64,000 nucleotides of DNA from Cyanobacteria bacterium P01_A01_bin.123 (lineage in GTDB: Bacteria; Cyanobacteriota; Cyanobacteriia; Phormidesmidales; Phormidesmidaceae), in the NCBI GenBank assembly GCA_039815185.1, contig JBCBZT010000001.1:1-64000 (forward strand). Reading direction: 5' to 3'. Position 1 is the first letter of the stretch; the number at the start of each line of letters is the position of its first letter. This document shows positions 1-18,011 of the stretch, one piece after another. A program made the translations under genes and the position numbers. The notes under the pieces were generated by a model that had not been told where the DNA came from, did no database searches, and worked only from the letters and a program-made list of their open reading frames with translations.

Positions 1-610
1 AGAACCTCTCCCTCCAGGCTCCACAGTTTCACAGTGTCGTCAGCGCTGGCCGAGGCCAGGGTGTTGCCATCGGGCGAAAACGCCACACTAAGGACAACAT
101 CGCTATGACCTTCCAGGGTGTTTAACTCCTCCCCCTGGCTACTCCACAGCTTCACGGTGCCATCAGCACTGGCAGAGGCGATAGTGTTGCTATCAGGCGA
201 AAAGGACACACTATTGACACCAGCGCTATGGCCTTCCAGAGTGTTTAGTTCCTCTCCCTGGCTACTCCACAGCTTCACGGTGCCATCAGCACTGGCAGAG
301 GCGATAGTGTTGCTATCAGGCGAAAAGGACACACTCCAGACAGCAGCGCTATGGCCTTCCAGAGTGTTTAGTTCCTCCCCCTGGCTACTCCACAGCTTCA
401 CGGTGGTGTTAGCGGTGGAGGAGGCGAGGGTTTTACCATCGGGCGAAAACGCCACACTTGTAACCCAATTGCCATGGCCTTGGAGGGTGTTCAGTTCCTC
501 CCCCTGGCTGCTCCATAGTTTCACGGTGCCATCAACACTGGCAGAGGCGATAGTGTTGCCATCGGGCGAAAACGCCACACTCAAGACAGTAGCGCTATGG
601 CCTTCAAGTT
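1..610 (-). repeat. 123-bp tandem WD40-coding repeats (about 5 units visible)
   Basis: Units at 125-247 and 248-370 are near-identical; neighbouring units are similar. Confidence 0.9.
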
Positions 611-3600
611 GATTTTTCTTTCGAATTGAGTAGAGCACTGTCTGAAGTTGACCAATCATCCGGACACGATTGGCCGTGGGCATGTTCACCTCACCCAACG
701 CTGAAACAGCTCTCACACTAGCCACCAAGGCTTCCAGCTGATTATTCGATAAAAAAAGCGCTCGCGATGCTGTGCTGAGCGCTTCAATCTCACTGCGTTC
801 GGCTCGTATTCGTTGTCTATTGCGCGATTGGGCGATGAAAAAAGTTGATATCCCAAATATCAAAGCGACTGATGCCAGACCCAGCGACAGCCGAGTCGCT
901 TTTTTTTGTAAACTCAGCCGTTCTTCTAAGACTTCGGCCTTCTCTTGCAAGGCAACATTCAGCTTTTCTTCGGCTTCTTGCTGGCGTCGCTTAGCCGCTT
1001 CTAGCTCCCGCAAAATTTCTGGCGGATGTCTCAACCGCACATAATCCACCAAATAATCATGCACCAACTGATACCGATCATCCGGCTCATCCGGTACCTC
1101 AAACACCAACCCCGACCCCACTAAAATCTCCAACACCAAATCCAGCTGAGTCTCATCAAAGCCCATGCCCAGCCCCGTCAACGCCTCCTCAACCTCCTCT
1201 CGCGTTTTCAATGGGCGATAGAGCCGCTTATCGGTATCCTCTTCGGTGAGCACATACAGCACAATCCGGGCCAAATCTTCATTGGGCGGCCCACAATCCG
1301 CCACCGTATAGGCCAAAAACTTCTGCACCAGCGTTTGCTTCGGCGTTTCCCCCAAATCTCGGTACTGATCCAGCGTGGTAATCTCTTCCCGCTGCAACTG
1401 TGCCCCCACCACCTGCAACTCAATGGGTCGCACATCCCCTGTCTCCAGCGCCAAATCTTGCACCAGCACCGCAATCAGCGCATCGTCTAGATAAAACTGG
1501 GCATCCCTCGTCAACTTGCGAATCACCGCTTCCGCATCGGTCAGCGAAAAATTGTCTAGCCGATAGCGAATATCTCGACTGAGGATGTCGTTGTCCCTAT
1601 GATTGCTGCTTTGATCAAGACTGCTGCTCAGGTCGACAACCTTTTCAACCTCAAGCAAATGGTGCAAATAGTCTTCCCGTAACGACAACACCACCTTGAC
1701 AAACGAAAGTTCAAGGCGATTTAAGCACTGGCCTAAAAATTCATAGAACAGCCGCCGTTCTTCCAGAGTCGGCTTTTCAAAGAAGAATTCTTCAAACTGA
1801 TCGAAGAGCAGGACGATGAAGTAGTCCTTTTGATTGAGGGCTTGGAGTTTGGAAAGTAGTGAGTGAGTGGGGGAGTGGGGGAGTGGGGGAGTGGGGGAGG
1901 CTAGAAAAGGCGGGGCGGAAGGTGAAGGGGACTTGTTGAAGGCGCGGAGTTTGCCTGGGATCTGTTCAACGCTTTGGTCTGAGTTTGCTGGAGGGGGGGA
2001 CGCGGTGAATCGCGTCCGTACGGCGGTGGGGCGTGTGGGTAGCTCGGTCAGGGCTTGGTCTAGGGCCGTTTCGATTGCTTGTTGCCAGTTGACATAGGTT
2101 TGAATCAGGATGGGTAAGCTGTTGCGGCCTTCGGGGGTGATGCGGCGGAGGGCCGGGGTGAGTCCGGCGTTGACGATGGAGCTTTTGCCGACGCCGGAAG
2201 GGCCGTGGATGACGATTAGCTGATTGTGTTTTGCCTTGAGCCGTTGAACCAATCTTTCAATGTCGTGTTCCCGACCGGAGGCGGCAATTTCAGCCGCGAC
2301 GGCCGTTTGGGTTTCCGTATCGAGGGGGCGGGCATAGGCGCTGCGTTTGTGGGGTTGCACCGCCCCCGCACCGATAAAGGCCCGCAGGTTGTAGCGAAAT
2401 TCCACCGCCCGCCGTTCTTGCTTGATCCGAAAGGCTTCTCGGTATTGCCCGGCCTCAAAATAGTGGTGAATTAGCTCATCCAAAATCTGACGATAGAGGG
2501 TGAGGTCAAGCTCAGGGTTAGTTTCTGCCTGGGCCTCGGCCAACAGCGCGATCGCGTCCTGAGGCGTACCCAAATGCATTTGTGCCTCGCCGAGCAAAAA
2601 GCGATACCAGCCCCGCTGAAACCGATTGGCGATCGCTAGCGCCACCGCCAACGGTTCATCCGCTGGATTTTGATCTAACTGTCGTTCTGCTTCTGTCAAC
2701 AGGTCAAGGGCGTTCAAAGCTTCAGCCCGGGCCGTTTGCCAGTCTTGATTTGCTAGAGCCACTTCGGCCAAAAAACCGCGATCGCGGGCCTGCCTAACCC
2801 AATCCTGAGTTTGTTCGTGCAGGGCTAAGGATTCTTGGGCGATCGCCGCTAACGCTCGCCAGTCCCGCTGCTTTTGCAACACTTCTGCCAGCGCATGGAT
2901 AAACTGTGCCTGCCGCTGCGGTTGATTCAGCACCTTAAAGATCGCCAAACAGGCCGCAAAATTCTGCTGCGCCTGCCGCAAAGAAGCCTCGTAGGTAACC
3001 CGCTGCAAGACTGCATTGCTGCGCCACCAGAGGCCGAGGTAGAAGTGGAGGATAGCGGTTTTTTCGAGAGGGGAGGGTGATGGGGGGATGGGGGGATGGG
3101 GTGATCGAGTAGAAGCGTTGACGAATTCCTCCCCACCTTCCCCATCTCGATTCCTAACACCTAACGCCTCTCCCCCACTCCCCAACTCGATCACACCATC
3201 ACTTCCCACGTCCCCACGCCCCCGCGCTGCCCGCTCCTGCCAATAGCCTAGGCTCCGCTGATAGCCCGCCCTGGCTGCTTCCATTTCGGTGTGGCTGTGG
3301 GCATCTCGGCCCCGTAGGAAGTCGAGGCTGGCGGTGAGGTCGGGGTCGAGGGGTTGATCGGGGCCGAGATCGTTGAGGGCGGCTTCGAGTTCGTTGCGCA
3401 GGCGGGAGGTGCCATTGAGATTGAGGGCGGTTTCGGGTAGGACATCGCTGCCAAACTCAAGCACCTGCTGAAACAGCTGATTGGTGCCTTGGTGCAAGGC
3501 ATAAATCAGTTCATCGAGGGGATAGTCAAAAGGAATCGTGGGCGGGGCCTGGTTTTTGAAATCTTGGGCGTAGCGGCTGATGAGGCGGACAACGCGATCG

Positions 3601-3980
3601 CTCAACCAGAGGATGAGCGGACAATCCATCAGCGATCGCAGTTGGTCTCTGGCTAAATTGGCATCTTTGAGTGCTTGGTTGAGATTAGACAACGCCCACA
3701 ATTGGGTAACGACCAACGCGGTGGGGGGAGTCGTTGTCGTTTGTAAATGGTGGCGAATGGCCATGACCACACTCGGGGTATTGGCTTCTAGCGCTAGCAC
3801 CTGCACGCCGTCAAACTGGCTTTGCAACTGCTCAATCACATAACCCTGCAACCGTTCGTAGTCGCACCGCACCAGCACGACTGAAAATTGGCCCACCGAC
3901 AGTCGCACCGCCCGCTCCAACCGCTGCAGCGACTCGCGATTGTGCGCCAGAATTTCGGCTTTAGTGTGTGACCGCATCAT
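1..3980 (-). CDS. STAND-type (nSTAND1-like) NTPase with TPR-like helical region, one TM helix and C-terminal WD40 repeats; 3' end beyond window
   Basis: Manual translation from ATG at 3980 (MMRSHTKAEILAHNRESLQRLERAVRLSVGQFSVVLVRCDY). Walker A VIHGPSGVGKSS at ~2180-2215, Walker B FIVLLFDQFEEFF at ~1785-1825, hydrophobic LSLGLASVALIFGISTFFIA at ~830-890, then repeats like GHSAGVNSVSFSPDSNTIASASADGTVKLWS. Start and the last WD40 codons are in the same frame; absent from the ORF track presumably because the stop lies outside the window. Confidence 0.9.
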   Translation of the reverse strand, partial: MMRSHTKAEILAHNRESLQRLERAVRLSVGQFSVVLVRCDYERLQGYVIEQLQSQFDGVQVLALEANTPSVVMAIRHHLQTTTTPPTALVVTQLWALSNLNQALKDANLARDQLRSLMDCPLILWLSDRVVRLISRYAQDFKNQAPPTIPFDYPLDELIYALHQGTNQLFQQVLEFGSDVLPETALNLNGTSRLRNELEAALNDLGPDQPLDPDLTASLDFLRGRDAHSHTEMEAARAGYQRSLGYWQERAARGRGDVGSDGVIELGSGGEALGVRNRDGEGGEEFVNASTRSPHPPIPPSPSPLEKTAILHFYLGLWWRSNAVLQRVTYEASLRQAQQNFAACLAIFKVLNQPQRQAQFIHALAEVLQKQRDWRALAAIAQESLALHEQTQDWVRQARDRGFLAEVALANQDWQTARAEALNALDLLTEAERQLDQNPADEPLAVALAIANRFQRGWYRFLLGEAQMHLGTPQDAIALLAEAQAETNPELDLTLYRQILDELIHHYFEAGQYREAFRIKQERRAVEFRYNLRAFIGAGAVQPHKRSAYARPLDTETQTAVAAEIAASGREHDIERLVQRLKAKHNQLIVIHGPSGVGKSSIVNAGLTPALRRITPEGRNSLPILIQTYVNWQQAIETALDQALTELPTRPTAVRTRFTASPPPANSDQSVEQIPGKLRAFNKSPSPSAPPFLASPTPPLPHSPTHSLLSKLQALNQKDYFIVLLFDQFEEFFFEKPTLEERRLFYEFLGQCLNRLELSFVKVVLSLREDYLHHLLEVEKVVDLSSSLDQSSNHRDNDILSRDIRYRLDNFSLTDAEAVIRKLTRDAQFYLDDALIAVLVQDLALETGDVRPIELQVVGAQLQREEITTLDQYRDLGETPKQTLVQKFLAYTVADCGPPNEDLARIVLYVLTEEDTDKRLYRPLKTREEVEEALTGLGMGFDETQLDLVLEILVGSGLVFEVPDEPDDRYQLVHDYLVDYVRLRHPPEILRELEAAKRRQQEAEEKLNVALQEKAEVLEERLSLQKKATRLSLGLASVALIFGISTFFIAQSRNRQRIRAERSEIEALSTASRALFLSNNQLEALVASVRAVSALGEVNMPTANRVRMIGQLQTVLYSIRKKNQLEGHSATVLSVAFSPDGNTIASASVDGTVKLWSSQGEELNTLQGHGNWVTSVAFSPDGKTLASSTANTTVKLWSSQGEELNTLEGHSAAVWSVSFSPDSNTIASASADGTVKLWSSQGEELNTLEGHSAGVNSVSFSPDSNTIASASADGTVKLWSSQGEELNTLEGHSDVVLSVAFSPDGNTLASASADDTVKLWSLEGEV

Positions 3981-3986
3981 AGACAC

Positions 3987-4036
3987 TAATATTAGCGCTA
4001 CCGAGTGGATGTACTCACTCAGTAGCGCTAATATTA
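3987..4036. promoter_or_regulatory. Inverted repeat, 21-bp arms (1 mismatch), 8-nt loop, just upstream of the STAND-WD40 start codon
   Basis: taatattagcgctaccgagtg-gatgtact-cactcagtagcgctaatatta. Confidence 0.6.
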
Positions 4037-4126
4037 AACCGTTTCCAGGTTCAGAACTGGTGTTTTGCTAACGGAAAACAGCATATCCTCATCTGAACGG
4101 GATTGATTCCGAAGGAGTCGCATATC

Positions 4127-4303
4127 CTAATGCTGCCCGCCTCGAATCCTTCTCCAAACCCAACGGGCGGCATTTTCCACGCTCGTGCCAATTCCCGCTT
4201 GCTGTAGGGAATTTCCAGTGGCGGAAAACCCTGAAGTAGAGTTGCGGTTAGCCTCGGATTGATCAGCGTTATTATTCAGGTCAGATGGATTGAAATCAGA
4301 CAT
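4127..4303 (-). CDS. Small hypothetical protein, 58 aa
   Basis: MSDFNPSDLNNNADQSEANRNSTSGFSATGNSLQQAGIGTSVENAARWVWRRIRGGQH; AAGGAG Shine-Dalgarno 8 nt upstream of the ATG; below the ORF-track length cutoff. Confidence 0.55.
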   Translation of the reverse strand: MSDFNPSDLNNNADQSEANRNSTSGFSATGNSLQQAGIGTSVENAARWVWRRIRGGQH

Positions 4304-4352
4304 GGGGCATTCTCCTTGGGGCTGTGCTATCGATTCAAATGAGTTCTAGAGG

Positions 4353-4505
4353 TTATTTGCGTCTGCCACGGATTAAGTCCCGAAGCTTACGACCAACGTT
4401 CATCGTTTGATCCGTTTTTGAGCGTGTTTTACCTTGAGAATTTTCCTTTGCGGTCGAAACTAAAGTTTCTAGAGCTTCGCGCACCTTCAAGCGTGTATTC
4501 GACAT
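4353..4505 (-). CDS. Small basic hypothetical protein, 50 aa
   Basis: MSNTRLKVREALETLVSTAKENSQGKTRSKTDQTMNVGRKLRDLIRGRRK; AGGGA upstream; co-directional with neighbours. Confidence 0.5.
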   Translation of the reverse strand: MSNTRLKVREALETLVSTAKENSQGKTRSKTDQTMNVGRKLRDLIRGRRK

Positions 4506-4768
4506 GACTTTATCCCTGATTCAAACAACAATCATCGCCAAACCCTTGATATTGGCCTGATAAACCAAGTCAAGCTCGGGATACGGAGTTCGCCCATAGG
4601 TTAAACTTCAGGTCTGGACTTGGACAAGGTTTAGAGAACCTTTAAGCTTGGCTTCCACTGGTTAATAGACTTGGATTCGTTAGGTTATGCAGTTTTGCCA
4701 ATTCACCCTGAATGCTTCATGACCGCTTGATACAATTCGGGATGTTTTTTTCAACTTGTTAGAGTTCG

Positions 4769-7258
4769 TTAACGGTTCAGGTTTGAGTTGATTGGATTTA
4801 TCTTGCGATCGCCTCTGATGGCGCTCAATACCAACAGCCAAATCGTCAGCAAGGGTAATGCAATTGGCACCAACGTCGCGGTTGAGGTGAACAGTTGAAC
4901 CATCCCCAGGGCATATAGGACAGAGGCGGCAGCTAATCGGTATAAACCCCTCGAGCGCTGTTTCTCTTCAAGGGAAATAAAGCGAATGCTTAAGGCTTTA
5001 GCCAATCCAATCGCTAGCCCAATCACCCACCAGTCAGATACTTTCCAAGCTCGGTACTGGGTGAGCAAGTGGTGAACGTTATAAGCTTGTAATTCGCCTC
5101 GAGTAATAAAGTTTTGGCACGGATACTGTTTTAGCAAGCAGCCAAAAAAGTCGTGCGATAAAGGTACTGAAAAGAAATCTTCCTCAGCACTGTAGTCTCC
5201 TGGGGCGATGATGACCACGCGATCGGCAAAGTAATCGGGTGGAAACTGGTCGGAGAGCAACTCATGGGCTGGAATCGTTTCATAAACGTGATCGGGGGGC
5301 AACGAGGTATCAATAATATACTGTCGACGGCGATCGCCTCCCATCGCCCATCTTTGCCTGCCGCGATCGGCCCACTGTACCAGTTGACTAACTGCTGTAT
5401 CGGATTGTTGTTGCCAGGTTCTCAGGTGGAAACTCAGCTCGGTTTGCAAGTTTTGACTGCGACCGGGGTCTGGTTTAAAGGTTTGTTGAAATGGGGCGTA
5501 GTTTTCAATGGCTGCCGATAACGCTAGCAAGTAGCTAAACGTGCAGTCTTGGGCACAGGTGCCGTCTTGAGGCAAGTCGAGTTCCCAAGGATAAAACCGC
5601 TGATCACCGTTAAAGCTCCAGTGGTCTGAGGCAATGCGATCGCGCACAAACAGCTCGCCCTCAGTATCGCTGGCAAAAACAAACCAGGTTCCCTGGGCCA
5701 CAGCCGCCTGGATCGAATCAGCCAGCAGGACTTCTTGGGGTTCTTCGGTGTAGAGCAGATAGCTAATCCCCATGGTTTTTGCGCCAAAGCTAGACAGCTT
5801 GCGAATCAAGCCAGACAAATATTCCCGATCGATTTCGTGGGGGTCAGCAAACTGAAAACCTGGCATGTTTTCGCTGGCGCGATTGAGCGAAGTTTGATCC
5901 ACGGAAATCAGCGCCACTGGGGGGAGATCCTCTGGGGGTAAGGGTTGGGTGTAATACCGATAAACGGCTTGCAACAATAACCGGGTATCGAGCAACACGC
6001 CAATGCGCAGCGGTTGAATTAGACAAATCACGGAGACTAATGCAATCAAGGTCAGATCTTTGCGGGTCAGTCCCCACTGGCGTACCCCCTGACGCCAATC
6101 TGAAGGTTGAATGCGGTAAGGAGTGCTGCCGGGGGCTAAAAATAATGAGGACACCAGATGCGCCGAGGGATAGGCAAATCTTTCGGTTTCCGCCAGCGAT
6201 CGCTGGGCGATCGCCAATGCCTTCCCCACATCTAGCCCTTGGGCAAGCTGTTGGCAAAAGGGGCTCAAAAAACGGTGGGCAGGGGCGCTAGCCACGGGTT
6301 CACGCATGACCAAGGCTTGTATCCCTAACCCGGCTAGGGATTGGGCAATGCTGAGGCCATTGCAAGAGTTAAACAGGGCCAATTGCAGTCCGTTTTGGCG
6401 GGCTTCAGCTAGGGCTTCTTCGGTTTCGCTCAAGGAGAGTTGAATGTTGGCAGACAGGGCAAATTGCCCGCCGCTGATAGCAGTATCGTCGCTATGGCCA
6501 CCGAAGTAAAGCACGTCCCAACCGCGATCGTCTTTGAGAGTTGCCGTAATTTTGGTTTTAACGGCGGCAACCGTATCTTCAGGAGACCAAGTCAGTCGCT
6601 GTACCTCGGCCACGCTACGCAGCGATCGCAGCACCTGCCAATCCGTTTGCAAGGCTAAAGTCGGATCATCGGCCAAAATCGCTAAAATTCGAGTTTTGCG
6701 ATGCCGTCGCGATCGCCCTATAGTCGCCCCCGCCTGCTCCCGCTGTGGCGCACTGCGAAAAATGCGAATGGTATCTGCTGGGGTTCCCTCTGGTGCTAAA
6801 TCCCACTGTTCCCAAGGTAACCGCGCCAGGTCAGCAGACTCGCACGCGACAAACACGTCAATGCCCACTGCCGCCGCAGGGCCACCTGCATGCATGAGCC
6901 GCGTCAGCTGATCGCGAATTTTTTGTTGAATTACGCGCCCCTCACCTTCTCCCAACCACCGTCGAAACGCCTGGATCAACGCTTGTTCGGCTTCCATCAA
7001 ATCGTGGGCCGGATCGCTAGAACCGGGGTTGAGTCGGCCACTGCTGCTAACTGGGGCGGCAGAACTCAATTCATAAAAGCGAAAGTAGCGTTTGCGCCAC
7101 AGGTCATAGTGTTGGGTCAACTGGGCCGATTCAGGCAGGGGAACCGACAGGTGTTGGCTCCGCTGGTTCCACAGCAGCAGCAAAATACAGTTTGCACCTT
7201 GCTGCAATACCCGCAACTCAAAGGGATAACGCTGCTTTTCTACGGCCTGATTCACCAT
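4769..7258 (-). CDS. CHAT (caspase/HetF-like) protease - TM - CHASE2 sensor - 3 TM receptor
   Basis: LARLPWEQW, ILAILAD, WDVLYFGGHS (His) and LALFNSCNGL (Cys) CHAT motifs; TM segment; CHASE2-like PPVALISVDQTSL...DREYLSGLIRKL...RVVIIA...GELQAYNVHHLL; three C-terminal hydrophobic helices. Start placed at ATG 7258 (ORF open to 7306). Confidence 0.88.
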   Translation of the reverse strand: MVNQAVEKQRYPFELRVLQQGANCILLLLWNQRSQHLSVPLPESAQLTQHYDLWRKRYFRFYELSSAAPVSSSGRLNPGSSDPAHDLMEAEQALIQAFRRWLGEGEGRVIQQKIRDQLTRLMHAGGPAAAVGIDVFVACESADLARLPWEQWDLAPEGTPADTIRIFRSAPQREQAGATIGRSRRHRKTRILAILADDPTLALQTDWQVLRSLRSVAEVQRLTWSPEDTVAAVKTKITATLKDDRGWDVLYFGGHSDDTAISGGQFALSANIQLSLSETEEALAEARQNGLQLALFNSCNGLSIAQSLAGLGIQALVMREPVASAPAHRFLSPFCQQLAQGLDVGKALAIAQRSLAETERFAYPSAHLVSSLFLAPGSTPYRIQPSDWRQGVRQWGLTRKDLTLIALVSVICLIQPLRIGVLLDTRLLLQAVYRYYTQPLPPEDLPPVALISVDQTSLNRASENMPGFQFADPHEIDREYLSGLIRKLSSFGAKTMGISYLLYTEEPQEVLLADSIQAAVAQGTWFVFASDTEGELFVRDRIASDHWSFNGDQRFYPWELDLPQDGTCAQDCTFSYLLALSAAIENYAPFQQTFKPDPGRSQNLQTELSFHLRTWQQQSDTAVSQLVQWADRGRQRWAMGGDRRRQYIIDTSLPPDHVYETIPAHELLSDQFPPDYFADRVVIIAPGDYSAEEDFFSVPLSHDFFGCLLKQYPCQNFITRGELQAYNVHHLLTQYRAWKVSDWWVIGLAIGLAKALSIRFISLEEKQRSRGLYRLAAASVLYALGMVQLFTSTATLVPIALPLLTIWLLVLSAIRGDRKINPINSNLNR

Positions 7259-7326
7259 CACAGTTAACCTAGATCTAAGACATAAGGCGATCCTTGATCG
7301 TGGCATTGACTCATAGATCTCCGATT

Positions 7327-7413
7327 TAGCCCCCCAATGCTGGGAGGAACTAATCTCTCAAAATCCCCCAGCATTTGAGGGCTTAAAGCCCTCCGGGCAT
7401 AGATGAAAGGGGG
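7327..7413. repeat. Short dispersed repeat family D, copy 1
   Basis: caaaatcccccagcat...cttaaagccctccgggcata...aaaggggg shared with 13035-13147. Confidence 0.6.
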
Positions 7414-7463
7414 ACAATGCAGCATGTATTGGGTTGGTTTATTCATCTCTGTGGCCCAGCACT

Positions 7464-8849
7464 TTAGCCATCATCACTTTCATTGTCATAAACAAAAGGC
7501 AGGGAAACCCAGTTTGGTCCGTTAATGGGCGTCAGCGTGATCACAAACGGGGCTTCGGTGTGACCGTCAACCTTGGCGTAGAGAAACGGATCGTTAAATT
7601 CAGACACTGGGGCTGCCATTTCTTGGTCTGGGGTGCTGATGGCCATCCGGACACCATTGGGCAGGGAGGTGCCCATTTGCATGCCTAGCAATGCCAGCAG
7701 TGACCAGCTGGGTGCTTCATCGGGAGAGGACAACCAGTGCACAGTGCATAGTCTCACGGGCACCCCCCGCAAATCAATGTCTTGATAGGCGTAGACTGCC
7801 GATTCAGGAATGAGCATGCCCTGGCGTCTTAACTCTGCGATCGCGGCTTGAAATTTATCAATTGATCGCAGACCGCTGGTCACGGGCGTCAGTTGGGGTA
7901 AAAAGAGCCCAGCCCCCGCTGCCGCCGTATCCACTTCACCCCGTAGCCAAGTCGCCACGTTGATAGCAGGTTGGGCCAAGGTTTGAAATAAGGTAGACAG
8001 TTGAGCCGGAGCAGATCGCCAGCGTTGATTTGCCGCCTGATCTACAGTTTGGCTTGCCGTGTGCCCAAAAAACTGGCCCGCTTGAAACTGTCGCCGCCAG
8101 CGATAAAGCTGTTTCAGTAGCGGTGAATTTTGCAAAATGGCCCGGCCTTGTTCCCAACTCAGATGATCGGTGAGAGCGTCTTCGGGCGATCGCAGCCAGG
8201 TTTGAATCATTTGCCAACAGCCTGTCTCCACCGCCTGTTTTTCATTTGAAAACGAGGGCAAGGCAACGGCGGCAGGTTCGAGCTGCTGGAGTTGCACCAG
8301 TAAATGGTTGGGTTCACTATCAAAGGCCGTCAGCGGCAGGGCATAGTGCCAGCTTTCGGGTTCAGGGTTGACCTGGGCGTGGCAAGCTTGGGCCAGCGTG
8401 GCGTAGCGTTCATGGCCCCGCACAAGTACCTGTCCCCATTCTTCTTGAACCTCTAGCACCACATAAAAGTGGGCCGCAAACTCGGGTAACTCAATGATCG
8501 CCTTGGGCAACAAGATTTCCTCGGCAAATAAGTTTTCAACCACCAGTAAGGCCAAGCGAAATGCCCCGACGCGCAGATTGCACACGCTGTCGATGACGCT
8601 CGCGATCGCGGGTTGGTGCAGCGAACAGCGCCTTCCCATTACCGTTAAACCTGGGTTTTGGCCCCGCTCAGTTAACCAATCGACAAATCCACTGTAGGCC
8701 AACCCTTGTAAATAGGTCTGCCACTGCCACGACTCCCCCACCATGGTTTGGGCAATTTGCTCAGACCAATCAAATTGTTCTGATTCCAGGGCGATCACCT
8801 CTGGTGAAGCCAGCCGCCAGTCCGTCATTTCAGATGTGGTGTGGTTCAT
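7464..8849 (-). CDS. DUF1822 family protein
   Basis: WQTYLQGLAYSGFVDWL, VCNLRVGAFRLAL, LPKAIIELPEFAAHFYVVLEVQEE and INVATWL motifs; overlaps the upstream gene's 3' end by 20 bp. Confidence 0.85.
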   Translation of the reverse strand: MNHTTSEMTDWRLASPEVIALESEQFDWSEQIAQTMVGESWQWQTYLQGLAYSGFVDWLTERGQNPGLTVMGRRCSLHQPAIASVIDSVCNLRVGAFRLALLVVENLFAEEILLPKAIIELPEFAAHFYVVLEVQEEWGQVLVRGHERYATLAQACHAQVNPEPESWHYALPLTAFDSEPNHLLVQLQQLEPAAVALPSFSNEKQAVETGCWQMIQTWLRSPEDALTDHLSWEQGRAILQNSPLLKQLYRWRRQFQAGQFFGHTASQTVDQAANQRWRSAPAQLSTLFQTLAQPAINVATWLRGEVDTAAAGAGLFLPQLTPVTSGLRSIDKFQAAIAELRRQGMLIPESAVYAYQDIDLRGVPVRLCTVHWLSSPDEAPSWSLLALLGMQMGTSLPNGVRMAISTPDQEMAAPVSEFNDPFLYAKVDGHTEAPFVITLTPINGPNWVSLPFVYDNESDDG

Positions 8850-10299
8850 GACACCCCTCCAAATAACGCTGTAAATAACGCCGATAAAGGTTTTCCATCA
8901 TCCGCCGATTTGACAGACGCGTGTTTGAATCCCCAGCCATCAAGATTTCCTCATCCACAAACTGCTCAATCTTCTGAGCCACAGTAGACAAGTAGTCAGG
9001 GTCGGTGGCGCAACGGTCAGCATCTAGGCTAGGGTGCAGCAAGTTTAGCACCTGGGCCACAGTGGAGTCGCGAACTCGGCTCAGCAGGTCTTTGAGATCC
9101 AACAGGCGACTCACTTGAGACTGGTTAGTCAACGCCAACAGGTCTGCCACCTCACTTTGAGACTTACCCTCTCGGTAAATCAAGCGCAGGGCGGGTATCA
9201 CTTTAGCAGCCAGGGCGCGGTAACGGGGTCGCTTTTGCAGGTGATTGATGTAGTCTTTTAAGCCTGCGACAACGCCCTGTTCCAGACATTGGGGCATCTG
9301 AGCTTGCCACTGGGTTTGAATCTCTCGCCAAGCGATCGCCTCAACCGTGTTGATCTCCTTTAAATCAGGCAACGCTTGCAGTCGATCGTCTCCCGCTTCA
9401 TTCCCCCGATCCAAAGAGTCCCAAACGGGCATGCCCCGCCGCTGCCAAATATCAAGCTGCCGCAGGGCTTTGGCAATCCGCCTGAGATCGCGCCGCAGTT
9501 GCTCTGGACTACTGACGGCAATGTGCTGGGTTGCCAGCCAAGCCACCATCTCTTGGAGCTGGGCCAGGGTTGGATCGGGACATTTGCCATGTTGGCGTTG
9601 GCCCTGTTGTCGGCGATCGCGGCGATAGACTTGATGGAAGGCTTTGATCAGGGCGCGATCGCAATCGTTAAAATTCTCCCACTGCCGTTTTCGCACCTGG
9701 TTAAGCAGTGCCCAGTCGGTCAAAAACGAAAACCCGCGTTCTGACAAAAACCGCTTAATCTCAGGTTGCTGACGGGTTTGATAATGCACCCAGCTATTTA
9801 AGTTGAGACTCCCCTGGGCATTGGGGTCAAACCGACGCAGTACCTCAACTGTAAACCGGGCATAGGCCAATGGCGTCATCTGCCCCGTTGGATCAAGGCA
9901 AAGTTGGGTTTGTCCCGCTGGGTTCAAGATGATGTATGTCATACCATCGTCGTCCAACACAAAGGGCAAAAGGTCTTGATAGGTAAACGCTTTTGCCGCA
10001 CTAAACACGCTAGCCAGTTGCCGACAGGCCACCAGAATACCGTGGGAGACATAGCACCGTAGGCAAAGCCCAGCTTCCGCCAGCACCAACAATTCAGCCG
10101 TCGCTCCCCGACGCTGAAAAATCGTCAGCAGCAATCGTTGAACGGCTTGATGTTGCGCCATTGTTAATGGCGTGTGGGGTTCCAGCGTCGAAAATTGCCC
10201 CTGAAAAAACGCACTCGCCGGGGAAATCGCTTTTTTCTCATAGCCCCCGCTACGGGGATCGAGTCGAAGCATCTCCCAATAATTAGATAGAAGACCCAT
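8830..10299 (-). CDS. Cyanobacterial sigma-70-like / HTH protein of the type found upstream of DUF1822 genes
   Basis: LCLRCYVSHGI, DLLPFVLDDDG, LTDWALLN and C-terminal region-4-like HTH LRLIYREGKSQSEVADLLALTNQSQVSRLL. Confidence 0.7.
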   Translation of the reverse strand: MGLLSNYWEMLRLDPRSGGYEKKAISPASAFFQGQFSTLEPHTPLTMAQHQAVQRLLLTIFQRRGATAELLVLAEAGLCLRCYVSHGILVACRQLASVFSAAKAFTYQDLLPFVLDDDGMTYIILNPAGQTQLCLDPTGQMTPLAYARFTVEVLRRFDPNAQGSLNLNSWVHYQTRQQPEIKRFLSERGFSFLTDWALLNQVRKRQWENFNDCDRALIKAFHQVYRRDRRQQGQRQHGKCPDPTLAQLQEMVAWLATQHIAVSSPEQLRRDLRRIAKALRQLDIWQRRGMPVWDSLDRGNEAGDDRLQALPDLKEINTVEAIAWREIQTQWQAQMPQCLEQGVVAGLKDYINHLQKRPRYRALAAKVIPALRLIYREGKSQSEVADLLALTNQSQVSRLLDLKDLLSRVRDSTVAQVLNLLHPSLDADRCATDPDYLSTVAQKIEQFVDEEILMAGDSNTRLSNRRMMENLYRRYLQRYLEGCHEPHHI

Positions 10300-10526
10300 G
10301 ATTCAATGCTTTCGCAAGCGTAACCAAATTATTGCATGGACGATTTAGCCCAGTAGGTACCCGTGCGGGTAATGTTTCCGTTCCGGTTTAGCGATATCTC
10401 CAATGTAAAAAGAGACGACAAAACAGCGCCTCCGTTTTTAGGGGCGTGTAAAATCTCCCTGATTAGCGGGAACGCAAAGCATCTGCGGGGTAGTCTAAAG
10501 GTCAGAAGCATCTTTAATGCATCAGC

Positions 10527-11492
10527 ATGGATAAGAAAACGATCGGCATGGTTTCCTGGTATCGCGGGTTGAAACAGTGCGACTGGCTTTGGAAACAGAC
10601 GCCCCATCCCTTTGGGGTGTGGGGCAATATTCAGCTCATCGCGCCTGCACCCAAGCCCGACTTTTTGCTGATGTATCAATATCAGTTTCCGACCCCAGCC
10701 AAGCGCAAAATGCCCAATTGGGTGCCGCGATTAGGTCGCAAAGGCAGGGGCAGCGATCAGGTTCCGGCTAGAGTGTTTCGTGACGTACCCAGAGAGCGGG
10801 TGATCTTTCAGATGCGAGAACCCCCCCTCGAAGAACTGATTAATAAATACACCCTGCAATATCAACTGGCAGATCGACACTGTGGCTACGTCACCGGCCC
10901 CGACGATGTCGCACCTGTGCCAGGATATATGCCGGCAATTTGGTACGTTGACACCTCGTTTCGAGAGCTTGATCAAGGCCCCGTGCCCGAGAAGACTAAA
11001 GCCTGTAGCTGGGTTACTTCCGGCGTTAACCGCACAGAAAACCACCGCAAACGACTCGCCTTTTTGCGGCAGACCAAAGAAATTTGCCCCAACATCGATA
11101 TCTATGGCCGGGGACTGCCCGACTGGGCGCAGGGGGTAGGCGAGTTGCAAAACAAGTGGCACGCCATGTCGCCCTACCATTACAACCTGGCCATCGAAAA
11201 CTACGCCGACAACGCGTGGTACGTTAGCGAAAAGCTCTGGGATTCACTCCTGTCCTGGTGTTTGCCCATTTACTACGGTGGCCCAGCGGCAGATAAACTC
11301 CTTCCCCCAGAGAGCTATTTGCGATTGCCCAGCATGGACGAAAAAGGGCTGGCCTACGTTCAAGACGTGATTTCGTCTCCCGACGCTTGGTATGAGCGCA
11401 AAGACGCGATCGCCGAAGCCCGCCAAATCATCCTCCACAAACTCAACCTGCTCAACTGGCTGTCAGACTATGTCGCCGAATTTGAAGCGTGA
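10527..11492 (+). CDS. Glycosyltransferase family 10 (fucosyltransferase-like)
   Basis: YHYNLAIENY...YVSEKLWDSLLSWCLPIYYG GT10 signature. Confidence 0.85.
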   Translation: MDKKTIGMVSWYRGLKQCDWLWKQTPHPFGVWGNIQLIAPAPKPDFLLMYQYQFPTPAKRKMPNWVPRLGRKGRGSDQVPARVFRDVPRERVIFQMREPPLEELINKYTLQYQLADRHCGYVTGPDDVAPVPGYMPAIWYVDTSFRELDQGPVPEKTKACSWVTSGVNRTENHRKRLAFLRQTKEICPNIDIYGRGLPDWAQGVGELQNKWHAMSPYHYNLAIENYADNAWYVSEKLWDSLLSWCLPIYYGGPAADKLLPPESYLRLPSMDEKGLAYVQDVISSPDAWYERKDAIAEARQIILHKLNLLNWLSDYVAEFEA

Positions 11493-11557
11493 GAGAGCAG
11501 TCAGAATCTAAAATCTAGAATCTAAAATCCACCCCATCCCCATTACCCCCCAAATCC

Positions 11558-12490
11558 ATGACCCGCGGAGTATACATCGTTGCCAACGATAAGGTCGCCG
11601 ATAACGCGATCGCCCTGCTCAGTAGCCTACGCCTGCATGATCCAGATTTGCCTGTGGTGATGATTCCTTTCAACGAAGCTCACCACGAGGCAGCGGCGAC
11701 ATTATCTCAAAATTATGGGGTAACGGTATTTCCTGATTTACCCTTCTTAGATGAGTTAACCCGCACGATTGGCGAAATTTTCCCGCGCGATTTTTTAGCC
11801 CTGCCTAACAAAATGCGTAAGCTGGCAGTTTGGTTTGGCCCATTAAATGAATTTCTCTACATTGATACCGATATCCTGCTATTTGAATCAGTAACCACTA
11901 GTCTCGATTACTTTGCCCAAGCAGATTTCCTCTGCTGCGATTACCACTTTAAGGGGCGGGGCTTGAGCGACGTCTTTTCGCCCTTAGTGCTTGAGCAGGG
12001 CATCTTTAGCGAAACTGAGGTGCAAGACGTCTTTAACAGCGGGTTTTGGGGGTCTAAGAAAAATGCCCTGACCCTGGATGGCCTCTACGATCGCCTGCGG
12101 GAATGCGCTGCCCATCGGGAATATTTTGACTTCTCTAGCGGCACCACCGATCAGCCGATCATGAACTATCTTGTGCTCAAGTCCATTGCCCAACGGTTAA
12201 ATATCGTCAAGGTCAACCCGGGTGAACCTGGCAGTTGGGGCGGCACGTCCCACTTCAAAGAACGTGATCATAAGCTTTATGATGGCGATCGCCCGTTGCG
12301 CTATCTCCATTGGGCCGGCACCCCCATGCGCCCCGGTGGCCCCTACCGTGACCTCTGGGAGTATTATCGCTATCTCAAGCATCCCGAAAGCAAACCCATC
12401 CCCCAGGCTTCACCAACCCCACCATCGCCTTGGGAAAAAATGATGCGGCAAATGAAGGGCAAGGTGAAAGCTACGTTTGGCAAGCGCTAG
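11558..12490 (+). CDS. GT-A fold glycosyltransferase (Npun_R2821/R2822-like, GT8-related)
   Basis: FLYIDTDIL DxD motif, FNSGFW, DQPIMNY, YLHWAG. Confidence 0.75.
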   Translation: MTRGVYIVANDKVADNAIALLSSLRLHDPDLPVVMIPFNEAHHEAAATLSQNYGVTVFPDLPFLDELTRTIGEIFPRDFLALPNKMRKLAVWFGPLNEFLYIDTDILLFESVTTSLDYFAQADFLCCDYHFKGRGLSDVFSPLVLEQGIFSETEVQDVFNSGFWGSKKNALTLDGLYDRLRECAAHREYFDFSSGTTDQPIMNYLVLKSIAQRLNIVKVNPGEPGSWGGTSHFKERDHKLYDGDRPLRYLHWAGTPMRPGGPYRDLWEYYRYLKHPESKPIPQASPTPPSPWEKMMRQMKGKVKATFGKR

Positions 12491-15881: not shown

Positions 15882-18011
15882 TTGAATTCTGATCAAAGTA
15901 ACACGCCTAATCCTGCAACCCCTAATCAGGAGTCTAGTCCTCTCAATCTCGATAATCTGAAAGACCCTACAACATTAGAAAACCTGGCTTTTAGCAAAAA
16001 TCCTACCGCGCTAAATGCCTGGGAAGAAGATTACGTCAGTCAGAATCTTAATCGGCAGAGCGTCAGTGGGGATACGCCACTGGTAGGTCAGAAAAGTGAC
16101 AACTTGCTAGAAGGTGGAGATGCTGAAGATCTGATCGCAGGCGGCCTGGGAGATGATGTCATCTTTGGGTTTAAAAATGATGATGTTTTGCGTGGCGATC
16201 TCAACAGTCGTTCTCCAGGGGGCCCTGAGGGCGGAGACGACATCATCTTCGGGGGTGAAGGAGATGACCGAATTGGCGGTAAGGGCGGTAATGATGCGCT
16301 CTTTGGCGAAGACGGTGATGATCAAATTTGGGGTGATGCTGGAGACGATATCCTGCGCGGCGGTCTTGGCAATGATCATCTTGTTGGCGATAACTTCTCA
16401 GGCGATCGCGGCAAAGATATCTTCGTTCTGGCAGCAGGCGAAGGCACAGACACGATTAAAGATTTCCGCATCGGAGAAGATCTCATTGGTCTAGCAAACG
16501 GTCTGACCTTTGAGAAATTAAATATTGTTCAGGGAACTGGTGATGAAACGGGCGATACCGTGATCAATGCTAGCGATACGGGTGAGAAGTTGGCGGTTCT
16601 CAAGGATATCGATAGCAGCGATATCGACAGCAATGACTTCACCGAATCAACTGAGTTCGAGCCCGAACCTGAGCCAGAACCCGAACCTGAGCCAGAACCC
16701 GAACCCGAACCTCAGCCAGAACCTGAGCCAGAACCAGAACCAGAACCCGAGCCCGAGCCTCAGCCAGAACCTGAGCCAGAACCAGAACCAGAACCCGAGC
16801 CCGAGCCTCAGCCAGAACCTGAGCCAGAACCCGAACCTGAGCCGGAACCCGAGCCTCAACCAGAACCTGAGCCAGAACCTGAGCCGGAACCTGAGCCTCA
16901 ACCAGAACCTGAGCCTGAGCCGGAACCCGAGCCCGAACCTGAGCCGGAACCTGAGCCTCAACCAGAACCTGAGCCTGAGCCTGAGCCGGAACCCGAGCCA
17001 GAACCTGAGCCCGAGCCTGAACCAGAGCCGGAGCCGGAGCCAGAACCCGAGCCCGAGCCAGAACCTGAGCCGGAACCCGAGCCAGAGCCTGAGCCGGAAC
17101 CCGAGCCGGAACCCGAGCCTGAGCCCGAACCAGAACCAGAACCAGAACCAGAACCCGAGCCGGAACCAGAACCTGAGCCGGAACCCGAGCCGGAACCCGA
17201 GCCAGAACCTGAGCCGGAACCCGAGCCCGAACCTGAGCCGGAACCTGAGCCAGAACCCGAGCCTGAGCCAGAACCCGAGCCTGAGCCGGAACCAGAACCT
17301 GAGCCTGAGCCCGAGCCGGAACCCGAGCCGGAACCTGGGCCAGGACCGGGAATGGACACCAATATCAGAAATCCAAGCAATGTGCCGAATTTCACACCCA
17401 ATACGAGTGAAGCTGAGCTTATAGCTCGGAATGCACCCAATATCACTATTGGCACGCAGACCATCTACTTTGGACAGCAGCAAGTTTCAGCCATCAATCA
17501 AAACCCAATTATTGCTAGCTTTGACAGCAGCAATCCCGGCAATAACTGGGTGCGTAACGATTACGAAACGACTCCACCCGATGGTCGTGCCTATGGTCTG
17601 TACTGGGATGGTGATGACTTATACGCTGCTTTCAGCATCGTAGGGACTGGCGGTAGTCCTAGCGAGGACTTCCGACGGGCTAGCTCTGATGCTGAGACTG
17701 CCTGGCTAAGAAACTATGGCCGGGGAGGGGGTGCCCGCGTCGGTGTTATCGGCAGAATCGATCCTAGGACAGGGAATTTACTGGATGCTGCTTACATCAC
17801 GGCACAACTGCCTAATGGCAATACTAACTCTGTGAATATCACGGGGCTCTCTACCAACAGTGCAGGGAACCTGGTTGTGACGGCTGATACGGCTTTTAGT
17901 CCTCGTAAATCCAACGGAGAACCCGCCGATATTGGTGGAATCGATGGCTATCAAATCGTATTGACTCCAGATTTGAGCAGGGTGCTCAGTACATCGGTAG
18001 ATGACCTATAG
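15882..18011 (+). CDS. Calcium-binding RTX (hemolysin-type repeat) protein with long Pro-Glu spacer and unknown C-terminal domain
   Basis: GGxGxDxxx nonapeptides ([36 protein letters not shown]), DTIKDF; GGAGG upstream of a TTG start. Confidence 0.88.
16659..17336 (+). repeat. (Glu-Pro)n coding hexamer tract, 678 bp = 113 dipeptides, with occasional Gln
   Basis: GARCCN repeats using mixed synonymous codons. Confidence 0.97.

What the first reader, a model, noticed from the sequence alone, without database searches (positions are those of the whole stretch)
4769..10299. Candidate protease-gated transcription system: sigma-like HTH + DUF1822 + CHAT-CHASE2 membrane receptor
Seen: three co-directional genes, the first two overlapping by 20 bp. 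The third has an intact CHAT His/Cys dyad (FGGHS, FNSC) N-terminal to a TM helix, a CHASE2 sensor and three TMs, with no kinase or cyclase output. Established: CHASE2 is an extracytoplasmic sensor normally fused to kinases/cyclases. CHAT proteases control regulators by cleavage in Anabaena HetF/PatU3 (with HetZ) and in type III-E CRISPR Csx29/Csx30 with its sigma factor. Inference: ligand binding activates the protease, which cleaves DUF1822 (putative anti-sigma) and releases the sigma-like factor. The gene trio recurs in cyanobacteria, but I know of no mechanistic description of it.
Basis: partly seen in the sequence, partly recalled or inferred. Interest (0 to 1): 0.8.

Follow-up and report, generated by a model that had tools for sequence, protein, structure and literature searches.

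The report
Caspase-gated sigma switch, heterocyst-circuit cousin
Three neighbouring cyanobacterial genes encode a membrane sensor fused to a caspase-like protease, a divergent sigma factor and a partner protein predicted to bind it; the gene set was catalogued by computer in 2021, and the protease likely switches the sigma factor on by cutting the partner at one conserved arginine, as HetF does to PatU3 in heterocyst development.

Summary
The trio is real: sigma-like gene (489 aa), DUF1822 (461 aa, 20-bp overlap) and EACC2-CHAT-TM-CHASE2-3TM (845 aa). The His/Cys dyad is kept in 120/121 and 121/121 homologues. It is not undescribed: Kaur et al. 2021 (PMC8195603) list EACC2+caspase+CHASE2 beside an ECF sigma and DUF1822 and propose autoproteolysis. 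This scan had also found it before (17 findings, at least 12 genomes).

Added here: (1) The first gene models as sigma2 + insertion + sigma4. (2) A sigma:DUF1822 model scores 0.78 against a best control of 0.00, with invariant residues at the interface. (3) DUF1822 carries a conserved Arg (R328|S) at the edge of a low-confidence loop, like HetF's site in PatU3 (R117|S118). (4) Of 143 readable DUF1822-CHAT neighbour pairs, the three whose protease has His instead of Asp/Glu at position 222 all have Leu instead of Arg (one evolutionary event).

The best reading is CHAT cleavage of a DUF1822 anti-sigma in trans (about 0.6). Nothing is shown experimentally, and the ligand and target genes are unknown. 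Homology to PatU and HetZ is a lead only. This clade also has its own palindromic upstream site.

The parts
10357..10372 (-). 16-bp palindrome (consensus GTACCC-N4-GGGTAC), candidate activator site upstream of the sigma gene
   Evidence: Found with at most 2 mismatches upstream of the sigma gene in L004-L013, L015-L017 and L126; the only 0-mismatch hit of the 15-nt pattern in the window. Function inferred.
10328..10336 (-). TGCAATAAT, extended -10-like element 20 nt downstream of the palindrome
   Evidence: Similar 9-mers at 19-20 nt spacing in L004, L005, L008, L013, L016, L126; the genome-wide spacing control showed no enrichment.
8830..10299 (-). Divergent sigma-70-family factor, 489 aa: sigma2-like domain (50-189), SANT-like helical insertion (193-292, invariant YRRDR 225-229), sigma4 HTH (334-411)
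   Evidence: AlphaFold model pLDDT 85; the top 30 Foldseek rows are all sigma factors, though E 0.015-0.24; VIA Z 7.0 to SigA domain 2; profile match 98.4%, E 6e-15 to a DUF1822-linked protein with Pfam sigma r2+r4 and TIGR02937 at 102 bits.
7464..8849 (-). DUF1822 protein, 461 aa: N-terminal PD-(D/E)XK-like domain without the nuclease motif (predicted sigma-binding, 8-195), helical middle, flexible loop 318-326, C-terminal Ig-like beta-sandwich (349-459); likely anti-sigma
   Evidence: Pfam E 2.7e-39; model pLDDT 87.6; VIA Z 8.4, rmsd 3.9, 132 aligned to D212 nuclease, and Ig-like matches at Z 5-6; complex score 0.78 vs control 0.00.
7866..7868 (-). Arg328 (SGLR|S), candidate P1 residue of the CHAT cleavage site
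   Evidence: R in 73 of 85 aligned rows; next to the pLDDT<50 loop; pair table. Cleavage itself not shown.
7325..7386 (.). 20-nt inverted repeat between the DUF1822 and CHAT genes
   Evidence: 85% complementary, 22 nt apart; role unknown.
4769..7306 (-). EACC2-CHAT-TM-CHASE2-3TM membrane protease, 845 aa as listed (probably 828 aa from Met18 at 7255)
   Evidence: N-domain homologous (98%, E 1.5e-13) to the clade containing L019's CHAT, which matches a protein listed as EACC2+CASPASE+nSTAND1 in Kaur's supplement.
6641..6643 (-). Asp222, start of CHAT helix 1, candidate S1 acid
   Evidence: D/E in 117 of 121 homologues; aligns with a Glu of the genome's HetF-like protein. The S1 role rests on recalled clan-CD structures, not on a call.
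6494..6496 (-). Catalytic His271
   Evidence: 120 of 121 homologues
6362..6364 (-). Catalytic Cys315
   Evidence: 121 of 121 homologues
5012..5992 (-). Divergent CHASE2 extracytoplasmic sensor domain (439-765)
   Evidence: Pfam 49 bits vs cut-off 26; flanked by hydrophobic peaks; ligand unknown.

Best explanation
This is an EACC2-caspase / DUF1822 / sigma gene module that likely works as a protease-gated transcription switch: DUF1822 is predicted to hold the divergent sigma factor inactive, and the membrane-anchored CHAT protease would cut DUF1822 after Arg328 when its CHASE2 domain senses an unknown envelope signal. Shown by the calls: the gene trio and its conservation, the intact dyad, the sigma2/sigma4 fold, the conserved linker Arg. 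Predicted: DUF1822's N-terminal degenerate-nuclease domain grips the sigma's insertion (YRRDR) plus parts of sigma2 and the region after sigma4. Inferred: the cut removes a 14.6-kDa Ig-like domain and leaves a 36.9-kDa fragment. That fragment is most likely destroyed by housekeeping proteases, as PatU3 is depleted in vivo by HetF, and the sigma is freed. The same protease module takes interchangeable sensors (CHASE2, nSTAND1-WD40, AAA_35), so the output is probably a stress or conflict response. The target genes are unknown.
For: Sigma:DUF1822 model score 0.78 (runs 0.79/0.71/0.78), best of 3 controls 0.00; that mark was reached by 116 of 157 solved and 2 of 215 mismatched pairs; runs share at least 48% of contacts; partner pLDDT at least 78. 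The lowest-error contacts join invariant residues (sigma N200, R226, R227; DUF1822 W43 invariant, Y46, E136, E137 at 90% or more), and the DUF1822 interface is more conserved than the protein overall (0.62 vs 0.44; for the sigma only 0.65 vs 0.61). No solved relative of either chain reached Foldseek E 0.001, so recall of a like complex is unlikely. Of 151 adjacent DUF1822-CHAT pairs, 143 were readable: 136 Arg+acid, 2 shifted Arg+acid, 1 Lys+acid, 1 with Arg a few residues upstream+acid (L351), and 3 Leu+His (L006, L007, L308). Four more Leu linkers pair with His/Gln proteases by equal contig length. HetF cuts PatU3 at R117|S118 and releases a 16.1-kDa C-terminal fragment (PMC9457339); PatU3 inhibits the sigma HetZ (PMC13342950). 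PatU keeps that Arg in 27 of 29 rows. The CHAT matches the genome's HetF-like protein at 98%.
Against: No experiment. The Leu/His switch is one event (DUF1822 clade support 96; monophyly of the proteases not rejected, p-AU 0.635), and the pairs are not independent, so it is a lead, not a statistic. The S1 role of Asp222 is recalled and was not modelled. The predicted sigma-binding domain lies wholly upstream of R328, so the cut alone need not release the sigma; in type III-E the Csx30 N-fragment stays on RpoE after cleavage. 24 of 60 sigma-DUF1822 genome loci have no EACC2-CHAT gene in the fetched flank. A complex score shows model confidence only, and close cousins also pass. DUF1822-PatU and sigma-HetZ homology did not reach significance (hhalign 12% and 5.8%).
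Confidence: 0.6

Rival explanations
1. Autopeptidase model (Kaur et al. 2021): the sensor triggers self-cleavage of the EACC2-caspase protein; EACC2 or a released fragment is the signal or effector, and DUF1822 is a scaffold rather than the substrate.
For: Proposed in PMC8195603. The EACC2 domain is constant and holds invariant residues. The related-by-analogy EACC1 is reported as a latent effector unleashed by site-specific proteolysis (search listing and start of abstract only).
Against: Does not explain the conserved linker Arg in DUF1822 or its matched change with residue 222. HetF, whose CHAT is homologous, acts in trans.
Confidence: 0.15
2. Cleavage happens but only untethers: the N-terminal DUF1822 fragment stays bound to the sigma as a cofactor or continuing inhibitor, and the removed Ig-like domain is the anchor or the switch (Csx30-like).
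For: All confident contacts are in DUF1822 8-223. Csx30-1 and RpoE stay together after Csx29 cleavage. CalpL releases a CalpT-fragment:CalpS subcomplex (discussion passage).
Against: PatU3 is depleted in vivo by HetF. The fragment covers sigma2 and sigma4-adjacent surfaces in the model, which suggests inhibition.
Confidence: 0.12
3. The sigma-DUF1822 pair is an autonomous unit; the neighbouring CHAT receptor has other substrates and is only co-regulated.
For: 24 of 60 loci lack the EACC2-CHAT in the flank. Several have TPR-CHAT or C14 caspases, kinases or unrelated genes next door. The genome's C109 pair has no CHAT neighbour.
Against: CHAT is the next gene in 44 of 56 DUF1822-selected loci and 151 adjacent pairs were collected. 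A protease elsewhere in the genome could serve orphan pairs: G000 has an unlinked EACC2-CHAT on C43.
Confidence: 0.08
4. The output is cell death or dormancy, by broad proteolysis or a toxic fragment, and the sigma is secondary.
For: Sister proteins carry STAND NTPase-WD40 sensors typical of conflict systems (PMC8195603). PCaspase cuts many substrates and gives abortive infection.
Against: DUF1822's nuclease-like domain lacks the catalytic acidic/Lys pattern (columns read). Sigma and DUF1822 are nearly inseparable (73/76), and many relatives have a promoter-like motif before the sigma gene.
Confidence: 0.05

Closest known systems
EACC2-caspase systems with ECF sigma and DUF1822 (Kaur, Iyer, Burroughs, Aravind, eLife 2021, PMC8195603; author list as given)
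   Same: Constant EACC2+caspase N-terminus, variable C-terminus including CHASE2 with TM helices, neighbours ECF sigma and DUF1822. The locus belongs to this set.
   Different: That paper proposes autopeptidase activation and calls DUF1822 a TPR protein. Here DUF1822 models as a nuclease-like domain plus an Ig-like domain, is predicted to bind the sigma and carries a candidate trans-cleavage site. I found no experimental study.
Anabaena HetF - PatU3 - sigma-HetZ (PMC9457339; PMC13342950)
   Same: Membrane CHAT protease with homologous catalytic domain (98%); sigma gene directly followed by its inhibitor; ECF-like sigma with insertions; Arg|Ser site about 130-140 residues from the inhibitor's C-terminus.
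   Different: Not orthologous: G000 has its own HetZ (619 bits, over cut-off), PatU and HetF-like genes elsewhere. HetF has a periplasmic TPR sensor and is unlinked. DUF1822-PatU and sigma-HetZ similarity is below significance; the reciprocal atlas hits are 0.82/0.83, leads only.
Type III-E Csx29 - Csx30 - RpoE; type III-B CalpL-CalpT-CalpS and SAVED-CHAT/PCaspase/PCc-sigma
   Same: Protease cuts a sigma-bound partner between an N-terminal sigma-binding domain and a C-terminal domain (passages).
   Different: Triggered by CRISPR target RNA or cyclic oligoadenylate. No homology of DUF1822 to Csx30 or CalpT was seen in the fold searches (inconclusive). No CRISPR link was examined or seen beside this trio.
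Myxococcus DdvA-DdvS (PMC11506125, abstract seen)
   Same: Membrane protein with a CHAT domain gating an ECF sigma.
   Different: There the CHAT is periplasmic, has an incomplete active site and is part of the anti-sigma itself. Here it is predicted cytoplasmic, intact and separate from the predicted anti-sigma.

Membership tests
EACC2-caspase system (Kaur 2021) | N-terminal EACC2 domain | tested here: met
   Kaur's supplement lists WP_017717001.1 (Oscillatoria PCC 10802, 829 aa) as EACC2+CASPASE+nSTAND1. L019 from that organism has a CHAT+nSTAND1 ORF of 841 aa, 829 from its Met13, after sigma and DUF1822; identity is inferred from organism, length and architecture. The window protein's N-domain matches that clade at 98%, E 1.5e-13. 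No EACC2 profile was available.
EACC2-caspase system (Kaur 2021) | Caspase/CHAT domain with His-Cys dyad after EACC2 | tested here: met
   Pfam CHAT E 5e-10; H271 120/121, C315 121/121.
EACC2-caspase system (Kaur 2021) | Variable C-terminal sensor (CHASE2+TM, STAND, others) | tested here: met
   CHASE2 here; nSTAND1-WD40, AAA_35, CHASE2 or none in sister loci.
EACC2-caspase system (Kaur 2021) | Neighbouring ECF-like sigma and DUF1822 genes | tested here: met
Sigma-70 family | Sigma2 and sigma4 domains | tested here: met
   Model residues 50-189 align to SigA domain 2 (Z 7.0, rmsd 2.9, 99 residues) and 334-411 to sigma-28 domain 4 (Z 5.6, rmsd 2.1, 64 residues). These Z values are middling, but sigma factors dominate both lists and the family links to a Pfam r2+r4 protein at E 6e-15.
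Sigma-70 family | Binds core RNA polymerase and initiates promoter-specific transcription | not testable with these tools
   Needs in vitro transcription.
HetZ family | Score over the NF037963 or NF037965 cut-off | tested here: not met
   No HetZ model hit the protein at E up to 1; the genome's three matches are other genes.
HetZ family | Remote homology to HetZ | tested here: inconclusive
   hhalign 5.8%, E 0.0065 over 203 columns.
PatU family | Homology of DUF1822 to PatU | tested here: inconclusive
   hhalign 0.3% full length and 12%, E 0.002 for the C-terminal part of the short clade, 0.2% for the window's long clade. With a PatU HMM, 30 of the top 108 non-PatU rows are DUF1822 but best E 0.14, and the reverse search did not rank PatU highly. 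Atlas reciprocal first outside hits 0.82/0.83.
HetF-type proteolytic pathway | Cys-dependent cleavage of the sigma inhibitor after Arg | not testable with these tools
   Only a conserved Arg and a matched change were shown.
PD-(D/E)XK nucleases | Catalytic acidic and Lys residues on the core strands | tested here: not met
   Fold similarity Z 8.4, but the columns at 84-111 show no conserved D...(D/E)xK pattern (judged by eye, no superposition).

The most novel reading that the evidence does not exclude
DUF1822 and PatU are one family of CHAT-cleaved anti-sigma factors sharing a scissile linker Arg. The heterocyst core circuit HetF-PatU3-HetZ is then a single domesticated member of a large cyanobacterial superfamily of caspase-gated sigma switches with swappable sensors, and one lineage has rewired the protease-substrate code from Asp/Arg to His/Leu, giving an orthogonal channel.
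Probability: 0.35. Interest if true: 0.78.

Novelty: new member of a known kind. Interest (0 to 1): 0.52.

Why it matters
DUF1822 was found in 29 of 46 sampled cyanobacterial genomes, up to 10 copies each, and has no function assigned. If the reading holds, cyanobacteria have a widespread third signalling route beside kinases and cyclases, in which a receptor caspase cuts an anti-sigma, and the heterocyst circuit has an identifiable origin. The predictions are residue-level (R328, D222, C315, the W43/YRRDR interface; the Leu/His pair as a natural specificity swap), so the question is directly testable with purified proteins. The gene set itself is not new.

Tried and rejected
Gene 1 as HetZ: rejected. 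DUF1822 as a TPR protein: not supported by the model. DUF1822 as an active nuclease: catalytic pattern not seen. Sequence searches of the PDB with the sigma and protease alignments gave nothing significant (best E 0.038 and 0.056). Foldseek gave no match at E 0.001 for either model. The CTGCATAA-N14-CATCTAT motif of relatives (33 of 109 upstream regions with at most 2 mismatches vs 0 of 327 background) is absent before the window's gene (5 mismatches), and a matrix scan of G000 gave only 3 weak hits. A palindrome regulon in G000 is not supported: 11 core matches vs about 8.3 expected, and the spacing control was flat (18 hits vs 11-22 at other spacings). A short PatU-like family did not bridge to DUF1822 (hhalign at most 2%). 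A search of 90 genomes for more His-type proteases found only the two already known. No sigma-70 consensus promoter or terminator excess in 4000-10600. No RNA holder listed. No paper held both PatU and DUF1822. Supplements not seen that may bear on novelty: the sigma-HetZ homologue tree in PMC13342950's SI, file 13 and the cut part of file 4 of PMC8195603, and all figures.


Full report
OBSERVATION. The three minus-strand ORFs are as described: 10299-8830 (489 aa), 8849-7464 (461 aa) and 7306-4769 (845 aa), the first two overlapping by 20 bp. Pfam gives DUF1822 for gene 2, CHAT (194-404) and a weak CHASE2 (439-765) for gene 3, and nothing for gene 1. In 121 homologues of gene 3 the catalytic Cys is invariant and the His present in 120. 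Averaged hydrophobicity gives one helix before CHASE2 and three after it, with a median tail of 13 residues. There is thus no kinase or cyclase, and the protease is predicted to face the cytoplasm. The real start is probably Met18.

PRIOR DESCRIPTION. Kaur et al. 2021 (PMC8195603; passages, section 8 and supplement searches seen) describe proteins with a constant EACC2+caspase N-terminus and variable C-termini including CHASE2. They state that most TRADD-N-independent neighbourhoods also encode an ECF sigma and DUF1822, and propose autopeptidase activation ending in sigma-driven transcription. Membership was tested through L019, whose CHAT+nSTAND1 protein fits a supplement entry by organism, length (829 aa) and architecture. 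The window protein's N-domain matches that clade at 98%. DUF1822 occurs in only two papers of the library, and my searches found no experimental study of the trio. This scan had noted the module in 17 earlier findings; a word search for a cleavage-site reading among them found none.

GENE 1 IS A SIGMA-70-FAMILY PROTEIN, NOT HetZ. The model (pLDDT 85) has a sigma2-like domain (Z 7.0 to SigA domain 2), a SANT-like insertion and a sigma4 HTH (Z 5.6 to sigma-28). The first 30 Foldseek rows are sigma factors, although none reaches E 0.001. A DUF1822-linked paralogue on contig C109 carries Pfam sigma r2 and r4 and passes TIGR02937, and matches the family profile at 98.4%, E 6e-15. The genome's true HetZ lies elsewhere next to PatU. 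Family-to-HetZ alignment is only 5.8%, though HetZ is likewise an ECF sigma with insertions, inhibited by PatU3 (PMC13342950; abstract, sections 8 and 9 and passages seen).

SYNTENY. Of the best 80 of 368 genome loci found with the sigma alignment, 73 of 76 with room have DUF1822 within 2 kb. The EACC2-CHAT gene is next in 32 of 60 loci with room and present in the locus in 36 of 60. Of the best 80 of 95 metagenome loci found with long DUF1822, 68 of 70 have the sigma upstream and 44 of 56 the CHAT downstream, 40 with CHASE2. Sister proteases carry nSTAND1-WD40, AAA_35, CHASE2 or no sensor; several loci without one have a TPR-CHAT or C14 caspase instead, others unrelated genes. G000 has a second complete trio on C78 and a sensorless EACC2-CHAT on C43. 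DUF1822 was found in 29 of 46 class-level genomes and none of 14 controls.

DUF1822 AS PREDICTED ANTI-SIGMA. Its model (pLDDT 87.6) has an N-terminal domain resembling PD-(D/E)XK nucleases (Z 8.4) without their catalytic pattern, a helical middle, a low-confidence loop at 318-326 and an Ig-like C-terminal domain; it is not a TPR protein. The sigma:DUF1822 prediction scored 0.78 against a best control of 0.00. That mark was reached by 116 of 157 solved and 2 of 215 mismatched pairs; the runs share at least 48% of contacts and partner pLDDT is at least 78. The best contacts join sigma N200, H222, R226, R227 and Q230 to DUF1822 W43, Q42, Y46, E136 and E137, mostly invariant or nearly invariant positions. 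This supports binding; it does not show it.

CANDIDATE CLEAVAGE SITE. Arg328 sits at the end of the flexible loop and is Arg in 73 of 85 rows while its neighbours vary. HetF cuts PatU3 between R117 and S118, releasing a 16.1-kDa C-terminal piece (PMC9457339; passages). PatU keeps a linker Arg in 27 of 29 rows, and a cut at R328 would release 14.6 kDa. The protease has Asp/Glu at position 222 in 117 of 121 homologues, aligned to a Glu in the genome's HetF-like protein. From recalled structures of clan-CD proteases, this helix-1 position forms the S1 pocket; I did not model it. Among 151 adjacent pairs (8 unreadable; duplicates and close kin not removed), all 140 with an acid have a basic residue in the linker: 136 Arg in column, 2 shifted, 1 Lys, 1 Arg a few residues upstream. 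All 3 with His have Pro-Met-Leu|Ser. Four further Leu linkers pair with His or Gln proteases by equal contig length. The dyad is intact in L006 and L007 and in the database proteases, and the new motif is conserved, which suits a specificity switch better than decay. Trees show it is one event, so it is a strong lead rather than proof. A separate PatU-like family (58.8% to PatU) has Arg in 26 of 26 readable rows and an adjacent CHAT detected in 19 of 27 loci, consistent with the same enzyme-substrate logic.

MECHANISM. Most likely: an unknown envelope signal at CHASE2 activates the CHAT, which cuts DUF1822 after R328; the sigma-bound fragment is then degraded or loosened and the sigma directs transcription (0.6). 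The weak step is release, because the predicted binding domain lies upstream of the cut. In type III-E CRISPR the Csx30 N-fragment stays on RpoE (bioRxiv 2022.08.17.504292, passages). Rivals are autoproteolysis (0.15), untethering without release (0.12), an independent sigma pair (0.08) and a death output (0.05). DUF1822-PatU homology is suggested by reciprocal atlas hits (0.82/0.83) and a weak C-terminal alignment but is not established.

UPSTREAM DNA. Relatives with short DUF1822 have CTGCATAA-N14-CATCTAT about 80 nt before the sigma gene, a likely autoregulated promoter. The window's clade lacks it and has GTACCC-N4-GGGTAC followed 19-20 nt later by an extended -10-like element. A LuxR-type gene follows the protease in 10 loci of this clade, though not in the window. 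The palindrome is enriched in genome G133 (55 strand matches vs 2 control) and less so in three others, but not in G000. An activator site is inferred, not shown.

VERDICT. A real, intact member of a computationally described but untested system. The gene set is known; the predicted sigma:DUF1822 complex, the candidate scissile Arg, the Leu/His switch and the parallel to HetF-PatU3-HetZ make it testable at residue level. Interest 0.52; new member of a known kind.

Noticed in passing
window 1-4067 (minus strand, open at the contig end): A reading frame of 1355 codons, missed by the default ORF list because it runs off the contig. By eye it has TPR-like repeats, a P-loop (GPSGVGKS), a hydrophobic helix and WD40 repeats, resembling cyanobacterial nSTAND1-beta-propeller proteins (no HMM run). 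It lies about 700 bp downstream of the protease gene.
   Followed up: no
G000:C92:144887-147331 (L094, L256-L282): A CHAT protease with intact dyad followed by a 203-aa PatU-like protein (hhalign 58.8%) with an invariant AMR/SLR Arg at the position of the HetF site. The PatU-like gene was found in 27 of 31 genomes, with the CHAT detected beside it in 19 of 27 loci. A candidate second HetF/PatU-type pair.
   Followed up: partly
G133 (genome of L008), about 30 sites; L215, L225, L229: The palindrome GTACCC-N4-GGGTAC is strongly enriched in G133. In the four genomes searched, some sites lie upstream of genes that look by eye like an iSTAND ATPase, a CHAT protein and a haemagglutinin-like exoprotein. 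Possible conflict/secretion regulon; may instead be a repeat.
   Followed up: partly
L006-L009, L011-L013, L015-L017; G000:C43:99194-99796 and C56:9431-10210: LuxR/GerE-type genes follow the protease in the window's clade. In G000 one homologue lies about 11 kb from the sensorless EACC2-CHAT, with TPR and TPR-CHAT genes between.
   Followed up: partly
L204, L205: DUF1822 proteins whose linker reads VVFL|G without Arg are followed by a kinase-like gene rather than a CHAT.
   Followed up: no
L070, L082, L091, L126-L128, L014: A fourth gene of about 250-280 aa often follows the protease. It is DUF928 in L070 and L082 but had no Pfam hit in L014, L091, L126-L128; it is absent from the window.
   Followed up: partly
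window 15882-18011: 709-aa ORF with calcium-binding-like GGxGxD repeats and a very long Glu-Pro tandem tract (by eye).
   Followed up: no
window 10527-12490: Divergent glycosyltransferase pair (GT10-like; Npun_R2821/R2822 family) sharing the 227-bp intergenic region with the sigma gene.
   Followed up: no
L127 / P0336: One homologue has Leu in place of the catalytic His, a likely inactive copy.
   Followed up: no
P0256: A 951-aa protein carries the sigma family domain in its C-terminal half (450-948), a possible fusion.
   Followed up: no
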